64,000 bases of DNA from Escherichia coli 042. GTDB lineage: Bacteria; Pseudomonadota; Gammaproteobacteria; Enterobacterales; Enterobacteriaceae. Where the stretch lies: NCBI RefSeq assembly GCF_000027125.1, contig NC_017626.1; one strand, written 5' to 3'. The notes beneath the pieces are model-generated. The model did not search any database. It was not told the DNA's origin and worked only from the letters and a program-made list of their open reading frames with translations. Position numbers and translations under genes: made by a program. Shown here piece by piece: positions 25,753-35,657 of the stretch (position 1 is the first letter of the stretch; each line of letters starts with the position of its first letter).

Positions 25753-25921
25753 GATGGCAGCCTCCGCGATGAATTTGATTAACTCACCACCGAGGTTTTC
25801 CACGACCATAAGGGTGGTGAGACGTACAGGGGTGGAAATACCGGTCATCACGGAACCCGGCCAGCCTTGCGGCTGCCCTGCACGCCCCACCATAATGCGA
25901 ATGTGGCTGTGCTTAACGCAT

Positions 25922-25946
25922 AAAAAAACCGCCTGAGCGCGGTTAT
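25922..25946 (-). terminator. intrinsic terminator on minus strand upstream of rha (tL-like)
   Basis: hairpin aaccgc gctcag gcggtt followed by T7 on minus strand. Confidence 0.5.
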
Positions 25947-26621
25947 GCGCCGTGAATGATTTCGGGTTTCCACGCCCGGCACCCGTTTTATGAGGTGCAG
26001 GTGCACTATAATTCCACCCGTTCTGGTTTTCAATAGCTACATTCAACATTTTCTCTACCTTTCATCACCGAAGTGAACTTTGTTGATGCGGTGCCTGGTG
26101 CCTCCAGGTGACGTTAACCAGTTAACAATTAACGTCGGATACAGAGCATTCCCGTTACGCCCGTAAAAGACCGCTTGTTTTAACTGTTCCGCGTGCGCTG
26201 AGCCGCATTCACCGCATCACAAAATTCACTTTAAAAAGGGCGGCAGAGCAGTCACGGAGTAGAACTGATACCGCCAAAAGTCACCAGAAAATTGATAACA
26301 GAGGGCGTTGCAGCGGAGTTGTCACTTAAGCGTATGGTCAACCTGACAACCCGGTGTCCTCAGCGGGGAAGGAATAACCCCGCCATACTTACCGCCGCGC
26401 CATTTCGCGGATTGCCACAACCGGAAGCGCACGGTCGAACTAAATTTAACGACACCGTACAGAGAGACCAATTTCGCCGTGCGCTTTCGCGTTATGCCCT
26501 GACTTTTCAGGGACATATCCTTTCAGTAAACTGTCAGTGCCGGATGCTCACCCGTGTCCGGCGCACGCACTCCACCTGACCCGTGGAGAACTCCTTAATT
26601 ACCAACCCTCAGGAGGGTGAA

Positions 26622-32395: not shown

Positions 32396-32853
32396 GAGAG
32401 GTTAACTATGAGGCGCTTCGTGAGGCAGCACAAAACTATCAGTCGACGCTGGCGTGGTATCAGGCTATCCCGGACAGCCCAAATGCTGAACGGGATTGTG
32501 ATGCGGCTCTTGCTGCGTTTAAGCGTCACATCCGTCATCGGGAAGCGGATATTATCGCTGATTTGCTGGATGGACTGGAAGAAGCAAAATCACAACTCAA
32601 AGAGCAGCGTGAGTATTACGAAGGCGTTATCTCTGATGGGAGCAAGCGTATTGCTGAACTGGAAGCGCGGGAAGTTCAATTACCGACTCGCTACGACCTT
32701 CGATATGGACACCCGATAAATGCAGATGAGCGACATGTCATGATACCTAAAGAAAATGGCAGTTGGCTTTACCTGATTGACTTAGAACACGCATTACGCG
32801 TCGCTGGCATTCGCATCAAAGGAGAGGAGCATGGAAATAAAACCAGAGGATGA
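32392..32853 (+). CDS. hypothetical nin-region protein (153 aa)
   Basis: ATG with AGGAGG; ATGA overlap with upstream gene. Confidence 0.6.
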   Translation: MREVNYEALREAAQNYQSTLAWYQAIPDSPNAERDCDAALAAFKRHIRHREADIIADLLDGLEEAKSQLKEQREYYEGVISDGSKRIAELEAREVQLPTRYDLRYGHPINADERHVMIPKENGSWLYLIDLEHALRVAGIRIKGEEHGNKTRG

Positions 32854-33187
32854 GTTAAGCAATATCGTTTTATTTCCGGTAAAAGAGGATGACCCTCGTA
32901 ATCAGGTTAATTTTCTTTATGAGCCATCGGAAAGACCATATTGTCATCACGCCTCTGTTCGGGTTGACGAAAAAGAGCGTCAGGTCCGCTGTAAAATCTG
33001 CGGTGCAGTTGTGGAGCCGTTTGACTGGATGCTCTCTGTGGCGAAAAGAGAAACCAGACTGGCAGATGATGTAAGGCTATTGCGCCAGGAGGAACAGGAA
33101 AGGCGGAAAAATATAGAAAAGTTAATTCAGATTGAGCGTAACGCGAAAGCGCGGATATGCAGGGCGACAAAATCCAGAACTGAATAA
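32831..33187 (+). CDS. hypothetical protein with putative zinc ribbon (118 aa)
   Basis: C..H...CxxC spacing; GGAGAGGAG Shine-Dalgarno. Confidence 0.6.
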   Translation: MEIKPEDELSNIVLFPVKEDDPRNQVNFLYEPSERPYCHHASVRVDEKERQVRCKICGAVVEPFDWMLSVAKRETRLADDVRLLRQEEQERRKNIEKLIQIERNAKARICRATKSRTE

Positions 33188-33282
33188 TTAAATTTAGCAC
33201 TGTAAATAAAATCAAATCCTTAACCGGAGGGATTTCTGCACCCTCAGAACATCAGGAGGCCGTCCGAAAGGGCGGTAGTGAA

Positions 33283-33465
33283 ATGCGAAAATTCAAAATA
33301 ATTATTGAAACGGGAATAGCCGGTGGAGATTTCGAGGATGAATTCGAAGTGGATGATGATGCAACACCAGATGAAATACAGGATGAAGCTAAAGATATTT
33401 TCTTTAACTACTGCAATTACTCATACCACGAAATAAAAGACGAAGAGGAAGAACAAAATGGCTGA
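33283..33465 (+). CDS. small highly acidic protein (60 aa)
   Basis: about 19 of 60 residues are D/E; GGAGG Shine-Dalgarno. Confidence 0.55.
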   Translation: MRKFKIIIETGIAGGDFEDEFEVDDDATPDEIQDEAKDIFFNYCNYSYHEIKDEEEEQNG

Positions 33466-33634
33466 TTTTGGTTCAACTAAATATAACGCCAGTTTTGAAG
33501 AATGGCATGAACTGTTAATGGATTATGCAGAGTTACGCGGTGGAAGTGCCGCTGATGCTGAAGCATGGCGTGATGATTATGAAGCAGGGAAAACACCGGT
33601 CGAAGCATATTGTGATGAGTGGGGCGATGAATGA
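33458..33634 (+). CDS. small acidic protein (58 aa)
   Basis: manual translation; overlapping start and stop codons with both neighbours. Confidence 0.45.
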   Translation: MADFGSTKYNASFEEWHELLMDYAELRGGSAADAEAWRDDYEAGKTPVEAYCDEWGDE

Positions 33635-33990: not shown

Positions 33991-34206
33991 ATGGGTATTG
34001 CCGCAAGTTATACCATGCATCTCTATTGTGATTGCCGCCAGTGTACGGATGGCAAATATCAGTCGCCAGATTTTGGTGAGTATATCGGTACGTCATGGGC
34101 TGGCTGTGCAAAAGAGGCACGTAAAGATGGGTGGCGAATAAGTGCCGACAAAACGCGTGCTTTTGCGCCAGGGCATAAAATTTTGAGGAGCAACAAAGGA
34201 GAGTGA
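33991..34206 (+). CDS. hypothetical Cys-rich small protein (71 aa)
   Basis: AGGAGG Shine-Dalgarno. Confidence 0.55.
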   Translation: MGIAASYTMHLYCDCRQCTDGKYQSPDFGEYIGTSWAGCAKEARKDGWRISADKTRAFAPGHKILRSNKGE

Positions 34207-35290: not shown

Positions 35291-35501
35291 AAACGGTTTG
35301 CGGGAAAAGGAGAGTTAAGTAGAATTGCAGCGGGTGCTTGAGGCTATCTGTCTCAGGCATGAACACCAAAAGGCAGATAGAGAAAAGCCCCAGTTAACAT
35401 TACGCGTCCGGCAAGACGCTTAACATTAATCTGAGGCCATATCTATGCTCTACACACGTAGGTTAGCCTCTTACGTGCCGAAAGGCAAGGAGAAGCAGGC
35501 T

Positions 35502-35657
35502 ATGAAGCAGCAAAAGGCGATGCTAATCGCCCTGATCGTCATCTGTTTAACCGTCATTGTGACGGCACTGGTAACGAGGAAAGACCTCTGCGAGGTACGA
35601 ATCCGAACCGGCCAGACGGAGGTCGCTGTCTTCACAGCTTACGAACCTGAGGAGTAA
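35502..35657 (+). CDS. hok: Hok/Gef-family type I toxin (51 aa), HokD/RelF-like
   Basis: MKQQKAMLIALIVICLTVIVTALVTRKDLCEVRIRTGQTEVAVFTAYEPEE matches the Hok family signature. Confidence 0.8.
   Translation: MKQQKAMLIALIVICLTVIVTALVTRKDLCEVRIRTGQTEVAVFTAYEPEE

What the first reader, a model, noticed from the sequence alone, without database searches (positions are those of the whole stretch)
33283..33634. Two tiny, strongly acidic proteins in the nin-like block (candidate DNA mimics or anti-restriction factors)
The 60-aa ORF (about one third D/E, e.g. GDFEDEFEVDDDATPDEIQDEAKD...KDEEEEQ) and the coupled 58-aa ORF are highly acidic and embedded in a run of translationally coupled small genes. 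Small acidic phage proteins are frequently DNA mimics that inhibit restriction or other DNA-binding defences. This is an inference from composition and context only.
Basis: inference. Interest (0 to 1): 0.35.

Follow-up and report, generated by a model that had tools for sequence, protein, structure and literature searches.

The report
Two small acidic prophage proteins, function unknown
Two adjacent, very acidic 60- and 58-residue genes in an E. coli lambdoid prophage are real and conserved. They belong to two separate uncharacterised families that travel among phages and conjugative plasmids, and the idea that they are DNA mimics or anti-restriction factors is still untested.

Summary
ORF60 (33283-33465, 20/60 D+E, net -15) and ORF58 (33458-33634, 16/58 D+E, net -12) overlap by 8 nt. 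They lie in a tightly packed gene run between replication gene P and RusA/Q of a Rac/Qin-like prophage of E. coli NCTC86.

Both are real genes. dN/dS is 0.1-0.27, the acidic positions are conserved column by column, and both AlphaFold models are confident (pLDDT 88-89).

- **ORF60:** it belongs to Pfam DUF7167 and PHROG 1997. The model is a beta-hairpin plus helix with a disordered poly-Glu tail. Relatives occur in Enterobacterales prophages, Klebsiella Guernseyvirinae and Enterococcus Herelleviridae.
- **ORF58:** it has no Pfam family but matches PHROG 519. The model is a three-helix bundle. Relatives occur in Ackermannviridae, KP34-like podoviruses and 554 plasmids (516 conjugative, mostly IncI2).
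- **Pairing:** the two families mostly occur apart, so they are not an obligate pair.
- **Similarity to known proteins:** no sequence or fold match to any solved structure, including known DNA mimics. No match to Ocr, ArdA or Ral families or to PADLOC defence-system models. No literature.

The best guess is that each is an independent acidic decoy that binds a basic, nucleic-acid-binding protein. That is inference only. The pair sits in about a third of complete E. coli genomes. It is an ordinary accessory module and a reasonable but unproven anti-defence candidate.

The parts
33283..33465 (+). ORF60, a DUF7167 family protein (WP_001224665.1), 60 aa, net charge -15. The predicted structure has strands 2-8 and 17-23, a helix at 29-43, a packed C-terminal segment and a disordered acidic tail (about 52-60).
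   Evidence: ORF and translation. Pfam PF23768 at 54.5 bits against a cut-off of 24.4. phrog_1997 at E 2.7e-30. AF2 pLDDT 87.6. dN/dS 0.11-0.27 against Klebsiella, Yersinia and Enterococcus-phage homologues.
33458..33634 (+). ORF58, an uncharacterised acidic three-helix protein (WP_000753053.1), 58 aa, net charge -12. Predicted helices are at 13-27, 34-42 and 47-55. The family motif is F-E-E-W...L..YA...GG...D..AWR.DY.AGKTP.EA..DEWG.
   Evidence: ORF. No Pfam hit. phrog_519 at E 8.5e-23. Exhaustive HMMER search gave 61 representative clusters, almost all 50-65 aa. AF2 pLDDT 88.9. dN/dS 0.11-0.26.
33458..33465 (+). An 8-nt overlap, ATGGCTGA. The ORF58 start codon lies inside the last codons and stop of ORF60. 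A GAGGA Shine-Dalgarno for ORF58 sits at 33445-33449, inside the poly-Glu codons of ORF60.
   Evidence: Read directly from the sequence. The same spacing is seen in 82 of 83 loci carrying ORF60. The same ATGGCTGA junction follows DUF1187 on IncI2 plasmids.
33255..33282 (+). Translation-initiation region of ORF60. It has GGAGG at 33255-33259, then a 7-bp GC-rich hairpin with a GAAA loop (33259-33276), then 6 nt before the ATG. This may be a split Shine-Dalgarno brought into register by the hairpin.
   Evidence: The hairpin is present in both the MFE and the centroid fold. The arrangement is kept in E. coli-type loci even where the sequence further upstream differs. The only stem variation seen in most copies is U/C, which keeps pairing; one locus (L069) carries further stem and loop changes. 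Distant homologues have ordinary Shine-Dalgarno sites. Function is inferred.
33188..33282 (+). A 95-nt spacer between ORF118 and ORF60. It has no promoter-like or terminator-like site on the + strand, so ORF60 and ORF58 are most likely read from the same delayed-early transcript as their neighbours.
   Evidence: Consensus scan and Rfam scan with no hit here.

Best explanation
Shown: ORF60 and ORF58 are genuine protein-coding accessory genes of a Rac/Qin-like lambdoid prophage. They lie in one densely packed gene run with the genes downstream of replication gene P, and ORF58 is translationally coupled to ORF60. They belong to two unrelated families of tiny, compact, strongly acidic proteins, DUF7167/PHROG 1997 and PHROG 519, and each family moves on its own among mobile elements. 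Inferred: expression from the delayed-early rightward transcript follows from position and from the absence of promoter- or terminator-like sites. Each protein probably acts alone, possibly as a homo-oligomer, as a stoichiometric acidic decoy. In that model its conserved carboxylate surface binds and blocks a basic, nucleic-acid-binding surface of a host protein, or of a protein from a rival element, that is conserved across many bacteria. Candidates include a nuclease-type defence, a recombination or repair nuclease, or a nucleoid protein. This would help the element establish or replicate. The two proteins are not an obligate heterodimer. Nothing shows that either literally mimics B-DNA or targets type I restriction.
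For: Real genes: pN is far below pS, with dN/dS 0.11-0.27; both AF2 models are confident; hydrophobic core columns and 13-14 acidic columns are conserved in each family. Independent mobility of the ORF58 family: 198 phage records, mostly Ackermannviridae, plus KP34-like phiKDA1 gp26 and a Morganella phage; 554 plasmids, of which 516 are conjugative and 414 are 80-90% identical, the sampled ones being IncI2-sized or IncI2-typed. Independent mobility of DUF7167: Klebsiella, Yersinia and Pantoea prophages, Klebsiella Guernseyvirinae, and Enterococcus Herelleviridae at 80 bits to my family profile. Only 14 of 62 diverse DUF7167 loci have an ORF58 relative within 5 kb, and those 14 show identical coordinates and scores in the profile search, i.e. 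one E. coli-type module. Immediate neighbours of DUF7167 are variable. Precedent for an acidic non-mimic inhibitor: TifA of Enterococcus phage phi47 binds and blocks type IV restriction enzymes through an electronegative surface (PMC11322646). A survey of the EVADES anti-defence catalogue reports that DNA-mimic anti-defence proteins are broad-spectrum.
Against: There is no direct functional evidence of any kind. There are no hits to any anti-defence or defence-system family and no fold match above noise. On IncI2 plasmids the ORF58 homologue heads an operon (CaiF/GrlA-like regulator, DUF1187, ORF58 homologue, SPFH, NfeD, then T4SS genes). By my inference from the mobC and relaxase position, that operon points away from the presumed oriT, which is not the orientation reported for leading-region anti-defence genes. 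In Salmonella phage Det7 the homologue lies just after the major capsid gene. DUF7167 keeps 42-50% identity between phages of Enterococcus and E. coli. Conservation that strong could equally point to a conserved phage-encoded partner or to an intrinsic role in DNA metabolism.
Confidence: 0.35

Rival explanations
1. One reading: one or both proteins are true B-DNA mimics that inhibit type I restriction-modification enzymes, in the manner of Ocr or ArdA.
For: D+E content is 28-33% and the acidic columns are conserved. The genes sit in an early-expressed position. ORF58 relatives occur on conjugative plasmids as well as phages, as ArdA does. Type I enzymes are universal, which would fit DUF7167 occurring in phages of both Gram-positive and Gram-negative hosts.
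Confidence: 0.1
2. They are accessory factors of the element's own DNA transactions. They would act as small acidic modulators or chaperones of a phage or plasmid replication, recombination or nuclease protein, not as anti-host factors.
For: In Klebsiella Guernseyvirinae, DUF7167 overlaps the start of a DUF2800/PD-(D/E)XK nuclease gene in a module with a gp2.5-like SSB and a DNA polymerase. In the Pantoea prophage it sits in the early-left operon upstream of a Rad52-like recombinase and SSB. phiKDA1 gp26, an ORF58 family member, lies between the DNA polymerase and the 5'-3' exonuclease. The Morganella homologue lies two genes from an RdgC-like gene. The high cross-phylum conservation of DUF7167 fits a conserved partner.
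Against: No neighbour is conserved across 67 loci. The 'exonuclease' beside the Enterococcus homologue is really a DUF3850/ASCH protein. In the window and in most prophages the genes sit among Ead/Ea22-like and DUF551-type variable genes, far from the recombination genes. IncI2 plasmids carry the ORF58 homologue with no such module.
Confidence: 0.2
3. ORF60 and ORF58 work together as a two-protein complex, a heterodimeric inhibitor or an inhibitor-plus-adaptor, which would explain the translational coupling.
For: The same 8-nt overlap is seen in 82 of 83 E. coli-type loci, and all 83 carry both genes. The two families are also adjacent, in reversed order, in a Pantoea prophage at about 45% identity.
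Against: The 83 loci are near-identical copies of one module. 48 of 62 diverse DUF7167 loci have no ORF58 relative within 5 kb. ORF58 relatives occur in 198 phages and 554 plasmids, against 35 and 15 for DUF7167. On IncI2 plasmids the ORF58 homologue is coupled to the unrelated, non-acidic DUF1187 through the same junction. Two proteins each with net charge below -10 are unlikely partners.
Confidence: 0.07
4. They are evolutionary filler: small ORFs carried along in a recombination-prone region without a selected function.
For: Databases hold many truncated, frameshifted and chimeric versions. The region is highly mosaic.
Against: Purifying selection is strong over saturated synonymous distances. 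The families persist across distant phages and plasmids with conserved cores and confident folds. Intact pairs are present in 1,749 of 5,426 complete E. coli genomes.
Confidence: 0.03

Closest known systems
Pfam DUF7167 (PF23768) / PHROG 1997
   Same: ORF60 matches the Pfam model end to end, well above the gathering score, and RefSeq already names it so.
   Different: There is no difference; ORF60 is a member. The family has no described function and no paper in the searched library mentions it.
PHROG 519 (unknown function; Kuttervirus members flagged as Acr candidates by machine learning only)
   Same: ORF58 matches at E 8.5e-23. Relatives include Det7 gp16, Vi01, Klebsiella Taipeivirus-like phages and phiKDA1 gp26. 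PMC9409062 lists phrog_519 among AcrHub/PaCRISPR predictions.
   Different: ORF58 covers only positions 76-137 of the 143-position profile. The extra N-terminal part probably reflects fusions with the upstream gene, such as the DUF1187-ORF58 fusion P0145. The Acr label is a composition-driven prediction and was never tested.
DNA-mimic anti-defence proteins (T7 Ocr, ArdA, T7 gp5.9, phi29 p56, PBS2 Ugi, T4 Arn)
   Same: They are small, very acidic, encoded by mobile elements and expressed early. gp5.9 (52 aa) and p56 (56 aa) are of similar size (my own knowledge).
   Different: No sequence or fold similarity. Whether the carboxylates follow a phosphate-backbone geometry could not be tested. No target is known.
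TifA (Orf65) of Enterococcus phage phi47, an inhibitor of type IV restriction enzymes
   Same: It is a small phage protein with an electronegative surface that binds and blocks nucleases without being an obvious B-DNA mimic (PMC11322646). This is the kind of mechanism proposed here.
   Different: TifA has two globular domains with an SH3-like N-terminal domain and 21% acidic residues. Neither ORF has that architecture.
Lambda nin-region and Ead/Ea22-type variable accessory genes
   Same: The genes occupy the same position (between P and Q here, and in the early-left operon in Stx phage ArgO145 and in Pantoea) and show the same mosaic, tightly packed organisation.
   Different: No homology to any named nin gene. 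The genes are defined only by DUF and PHROG families.

Membership tests
Pfam DUF7167 (PF23768) | Whole-protein HMM score at or above the gathering cut-off (24.4 bits), full-length match | tested here: met
   ORF60 scores 54.5 bits at E 1.2e-14, residues 2-53 on profile positions 1-60 of 60. phrog_1997 matches at E 2.7e-30.
PHROG 519 | Significant match to the family profile | tested here: met
   ORF58 matches at E 8.5e-23 and 82 bits, but only to profile positions 76-137 of 143.
Pfam 'DUF5419' (label on the Morganella phage homologue) | Match to a Pfam model of that name | tested here: not met
   No Pfam hit for ORF58, for the Morganella protein or for 40 family members, even at E up to 10. 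No paper mentions the name.
DNA-mimic proteins (functional class) | High density of surface Asp/Glu, conserved in the family | tested here: met
   D+E is 33% and 28%. Thirteen to fourteen columns are acidic in at least 70% of members. Every family member has a net negative charge.
DNA-mimic proteins (functional class) | Carboxylates arranged with the spacing and helical path of DNA phosphates, usually on an elongated dimer | not testable with these tools
No multimer prediction was possible.
DNA-mimic proteins (functional class) | Binds the DNA-binding site of a target protein and competes with DNA | not testable with these tools
   Needs biochemistry or co-folding against candidate targets.
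Known anti-restriction families (Ocr, ArdA, ArdB/KlcA, Ral/Lar) | Sequence or fold homology to a family member | tested here: not met
Defence-system components (PADLOC) | Match to a defence-system protein model | tested here: not met
   No hit at E up to 1.
Lambda nin region | Position between the replication genes and antiterminator Q | tested here: met
   The order is DnaT-like, P, the block, RusA, Q.
Lambda nin region | Homology to NinA-NinI proteins | tested here: not met
   No Nin family among the Pfam hits for ORF60, ORF58 or the three flanking ORFs. The RefSeq names in the block are DUFs, Ead/Ea22-like and hypotheticals.
Obligate two-gene module (heterodimer or toxin-antitoxin-like pair) | The two families co-occur wherever either is found | tested here: not met
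   48 of 62 diverse DUF7167 loci lack an ORF58 relative within 5 kb. Collection counts are 198 against 35 phages and 554 against 15 plasmids. Klebsiella and Yersinia prophages lack ORF58.
Plasmid leading-region anti-defence genes (Samuel et al. 2024) | Located near oriT, encoded on the T-strand (transcribed toward oriT), and enriched in the published family list | tested here: inconclusive
   The IncI2 homologue lies about 15 kb from the presumed oriT, beyond repA. It is on the strand opposite to the hicAB and small-ORF cluster and heads the T4SS operon. The oriT position is inferred from mobC and the relaxase. The accessions are absent from the paper's supplements.

The most novel reading that the evidence does not exclude
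The ORF58 family (PHROG 519) would be a previously unrecognised pan-element inhibitor. In this reading a 50-residue acidic three-helix protein is shared by IncI2 conjugative plasmids (from outside knowledge, a plasmid type that often carries mcr-1), Ackermannviridae, KP34-like podoviruses and lambdoid prophages, and it neutralises a conserved nucleic-acid-binding defence or repair protein of Enterobacterales, comparable in reach to ArdA or Ocr. DUF7167 would be a second, independent such inhibitor, with a target conserved from Enterococcus to E. coli.
Probability: 0.2. Interest if true: 0.6.

Novelty: new member of a known kind. Interest (0 to 1): 0.3.

Why it matters
About a third of complete E. 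coli genomes carry this pair. A close ORF58 homologue sits on hundreds of IncI2 conjugative plasmids. If either protein disarms a host defence or repair function, it would be a very widespread factor helping phages and resistance plasmids to establish, and a compact new inhibitor scaffold. If not, these are two more of the many small accessory genes of lambdoid prophages. The present evidence cannot tell these two outcomes apart. What it does provide is two well-defined families, confident models and a short list of cheap experiments.

Tried and rejected
- **Family libraries:** Pfam, NCBIfam, PHROG and PADLOC scans gave only 'unknown function' families.
- **Solved structures by sequence:** PDB searches with single sequences and with family profiles found nothing significant.
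- **Literature:** searches for DUF7167, DUF5419, the two WP accessions and the PHROG ids found nothing functional. phrog_519 appears only as a machine-learning Acr prediction. A search for the gene names used in the Rac 442/2 record returned only unrelated papers. Peptide and accession searches in the supplements of the leading-region, Silas-lab and EVADES papers were negative.
- **Enterococcus DUF7167 homologue as TifA:** rejected, because TifA has two domains with an SH3-like N-terminus.
- **Link between DUF7167 and exonucleases:** it holds only for Guernseyvirinae. The Enterococcus 'exonuclease' is a DUF3850/ASCH protein, and neighbours elsewhere vary.
- **ORF60 and ORF58 as obligate partners:** rejected on distribution.
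- **N-terminally extended 84-93 aa versions of ORF60 in databases:** these are upstream in-frame read-ins. The window has a stop 27 codons upstream, and distant homologues start at MRKF (and read).
- **Failed scan:** a viral-contig scan with a divergent ORF58 alignment failed for lack of a conserved stretch.

Full report
**Where the window comes from.** The 1.5 kb around the finding is 100% identical to the chromosome of E. coli NCTC86. The RefSeq annotation places it in a Rac/Qin-like lambdoid prophage integrated next to ompW. The gene order is int, xis, RecE-type exonuclease, dicB and ydfABC. Then come the repressor region, YdaT, a DnaT-like replication gene and P. A run of small genes follows (DUF1627, DUF977, DUF4406, Ead/Ea22-like, several hypotheticals, DUF7167 and DUF4014), and then hokD, DUF968, RusA, antiterminator Q, a methyltransferase, tRNAs and lysis genes. 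The block therefore occupies the position of the lambda nin region. None of the five ORFs I scanned matches a Nin family, and RefSeq names no nin gene in the block.

**The observation.** ORF60 (33283-33465) and ORF58 (33458-33634) exist as described.
- ORF60 has 20 D+E in 60 residues and net charge -15. ORF58 has 16 D+E in 58 residues and net charge -12.
- They are the two most acidic of 41 annotated proteins in the 25-kb prophage stretch.
- ORF58 starts 8 nt inside ORF60 (ATGGCTGA). Its GAGGA Shine-Dalgarno lies inside the poly-Glu codons of ORF60. Its stop overlaps the next ATG (ATGA). Downstream genes follow with gaps of 0-1 nt.
- The 95-nt spacer upstream of ORF60 has no promoter-like or terminator-like site on the + strand and no Rfam hit. 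Both genes are therefore most likely read from the delayed-early rightward transcript. This is inferred from position.

**Are they real genes?** Yes, on three lines of evidence.
- Against homologues whose synonymous sites are near saturation, non-synonymous change is low. For ORF60, dN/dS is 0.11 (Klebsiella), 0.22 (Yersinia) and 0.27 (Enterococcus phage). For ORF58 it is 0.11 (IncI2 plasmid), 0.13 (Morganella phage) and 0.26 (Det7).
- Family alignments show conserved hydrophobic and aromatic cores, plus 13-14 columns that are acidic in at least 70% of members.
- AlphaFold2 with these alignments gives confident models. ORF58 has pLDDT 88.9 and three helices (13-27, 34-42, 47-55). ORF60 has pLDDT 87.6, with a beta-hairpin (2-8, 17-23), a helix (29-43), a packed C-terminal segment and a disordered acidic tail.

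The 352-bp pair is present at 80% coverage or more in 1,749 of 5,426 complete E. coli genomes, with up to four copies per genome.

**What ORF60 is.** It is a member of Pfam DUF7167 (54.5 bits against a cut-off of 24.4) and of PHROG 1997.
- Relatives occur in prophages of Klebsiella, Citrobacter, Yersinia and Pantoea.
- They also occur in virulent Klebsiella Guernseyvirinae, where the gene overlaps the start of a DUF2800/PD-(D/E)XK nuclease gene.
- They occur in about 140-kb Enterococcus Herelleviridae as well. That protein scores 80 bits against my family profile.
- In temperate phages the gene sits among variable Ead/Ea22-like and DUF551-type genes. It lies in the nin position in E. coli and Klebsiella, and in the early-left operon in Stx phage ArgO145, Pantoea and Yersinia.
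- No neighbour is conserved across 67 loci.

**What ORF58 is.** It has no Pfam family but matches PHROG 519.
- An exhaustive HMMER search of 1.84 billion representatives found only 61 clusters, almost all stand-alone proteins of 50-65 residues.
- tblastn finds the family in 198 phage records. Most are Ackermannviridae of Salmonella, Klebsiella and Escherichia (Vi01, Det7 gp16). It is also in the KP34-like podovirus phiKDA1, where gp26 lies between the DNA polymerase and the 5'-3' exonuclease, and in a Morganella phage.
- It is found in 554 plasmids, of which 516 are conjugative. Of these, 414 are 80-90% identical to ORF58; nearly all of the sampled ones are about 60-kb plasmids, and the one examined is typed IncI2.
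- On IncI2 the homologue (WP_000753050, 86% identical) follows a CaiF/GrlA-like regulator and DUF1187. It precedes SPFH, NfeD and the T4SS genes, and it uses the same ATGGCTGA junction with DUF1187.
- More distant homologues lie among hypothetical genes on large Klebsiella and Raoultella plasmids, and tblastn also finds them on Providencia and Aeromonas plasmids.

**Are the two a functional pair?** Probably not.
- In all 83 E. coli-type loci fetched, ORF58 follows ORF60, with identical spacing in 82 of them. Those loci are copies of one module, so this is weak evidence.
- In Pantoea the two families are adjacent but in reverse order. In Klebsiella and Yersinia prophages ORF58 is absent.
- Of 62 diverse DUF7167 loci, 48 have no ORF58 relative within 5 kb. 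The 14 that do show identical hit coordinates and scores, so they look like copies of one E. coli-type module.
- The collection counts also differ widely: 198 phages for ORF58 against 35 for ORF60, and 554 plasmids against 15.

**Test of the DNA-mimic or anti-restriction reading.** No anti-restriction, anti-defence or defence family matches either protein. No solved structure is related by sequence or by profile.
- For ORF58, Foldseek against the PDB gives three matches with E above 3.
- DNA mimics do not share a fold, so this removes a possible positive without refuting mimicry.
- The small folded cores argue against the long DNA site of type I enzymes. This rests on my own knowledge of the Ocr and ArdA structures.
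- On IncI2, the operon holding the ORF58 homologue points away from the presumed oriT. That differs from the T-strand orientation reported for leading-region anti-defence genes. The oriT position is my inference.
- Neither family appears in the supplements of the leading-region study, the Silas-lab accessory-gene screen or the EVADES catalogue.
- The only published functional hint is a machine-learning Acr prediction for phrog_519 in Kuttervirus genomes.

**Most likely mechanism.** Each protein is an independent, compact, uniformly acidic binder whose conserved carboxylates engage a basic nucleic-acid-binding surface of a conserved host or rival-element protein. This is a decoy or inhibitor role of the kind shown for TifA, an acidic non-mimic inhibitor of type IV restriction enzymes, and for true DNA mimics. 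I put this at about 0.35. The rivals are:
- a role with the element's own replication or recombination proteins (0.2), suggested by the Guernseyvirinae, phiKDA1, Pantoea and Morganella contexts;
- literal type I anti-restriction mimicry (0.1);
- a heterodimeric pair (0.07);
- no selected function (0.03).

The remaining probability is for something not yet considered.

**Verdict.** They are members of already catalogued families of unknown function, common in E. coli prophages. The new information is the independent and very wide mobility of the two families, especially ORF58 on IncI2 plasmids and in Ackermannviridae, and the position-specific conservation of acidity. Both make the proteins reasonable candidates for a cheap anti-defence screen. 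Interest is modest (0.3).

Noticed in passing
window 33255-33285: ORF60 has no Shine-Dalgarno at the normal distance. A GGAGG lies 24 nt upstream, followed by a 7-bp GC-rich hairpin with a GAAA tetraloop and then 6 nt before the ATG. This could be a split ribosome-binding site brought into register by the hairpin, as described for T4 gene 38 (my own knowledge). The arrangement travels with the gene in E. coli-type loci even where the sequence further upstream differs. In most copies the only stem variation is U/C, which keeps pairing, and no compensatory double change was seen; one locus (L069) has further stem and loop changes.
   Followed up: partly
IncI2 plasmid NZ_CP011294.1, 26882-31047 (L093 6348-10513): An 86%-identical ORF58 homologue sits in an operon made of a CaiF/GrlA-like regulator, DUF1187, the ORF58 homologue, SPFH, NfeD, small ORFs and then the T4SS genes. 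It is joined to DUF1187 by the same ATGGCTGA overlap that joins ORF60 to ORF58 in the prophage. The module boundary therefore seems to lie just upstream of the ORF58 start codon.
   Followed up: partly
database proteins P0022, P0036, P0041, P0051, P0110, P0111, P0137, P0145: Many deposited 'proteins' are in-frame chimeras whose breakpoints fall inside ORF60 or ORF58. Examples are the DUF1627 N-terminus fused to the ORF60 or ORF58 C-terminus, ORF118 fused to ORF60, and DUF1187 fused to ORF58. Many frameshifted forms also occur. This suggests recombination junctions or decay inside these genes in some prophages, or assembly errors.
   Followed up: no
window 33991-34206 (ORF71); L084 3172-3384: A Cys-rich 71-aa protein (phrog_926; contains CDCxxC) lies two genes downstream of ORF58. 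Its Klebsiella homologue directly follows DUF7167 there, so ORF58 and ORF119 look like an insertion between DUF7167 and this gene in E. coli.
   Followed up: partly
window 32831-33187 (ORF118): The gene upstream of ORF60 encodes a protein with a Cys/His-rich putative zinc-ribbon segment (weak TFIIB zinc-ribbon match, E 1.6e-4, below the Pfam cut-off) followed by a charged, probably helical tail (phrog_1621). It is present in only 61 of 83 loci that carry the ORF60/58 pair.
   Followed up: no
Klebsiella phages VLCpiS11a and 37P2 (L088 and L096, 3001-4525): In these virulent Guernseyvirinae the DUF7167 gene overlaps the start of a 454-aa DUF2800/PD-(D/E)XK nuclease gene. In VLCpiS11a the module also carries a gene annotated as a gp2.5-like SSB/annealase and a DNA polymerase. 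In record ON107243 the 55-aa DUF7167 protein itself is mislabelled 'PD-(D/E)XK phosphodiesterase'.
   Followed up: partly
window 25810-26289, 35332-35507, 42147-43149: Rfam and ARAGORN find a C4 antisense RNA, isrK and DicF in the early-left region, and sok next to hokD. Downstream of Q there are three tRNAs (CAU, which RefSeq annotates as Ile; Arg-UCG; Arg-UCU), followed by two STnc100 copies.
   Followed up: no
Morganella phage Mecenats66, OL614104.1 2647-2808: The ORF58-family protein is annotated 'DUF5419', but no Pfam model in the current library matches it or any family member. The label seems obsolete or to come from another source.
   Followed up: yes
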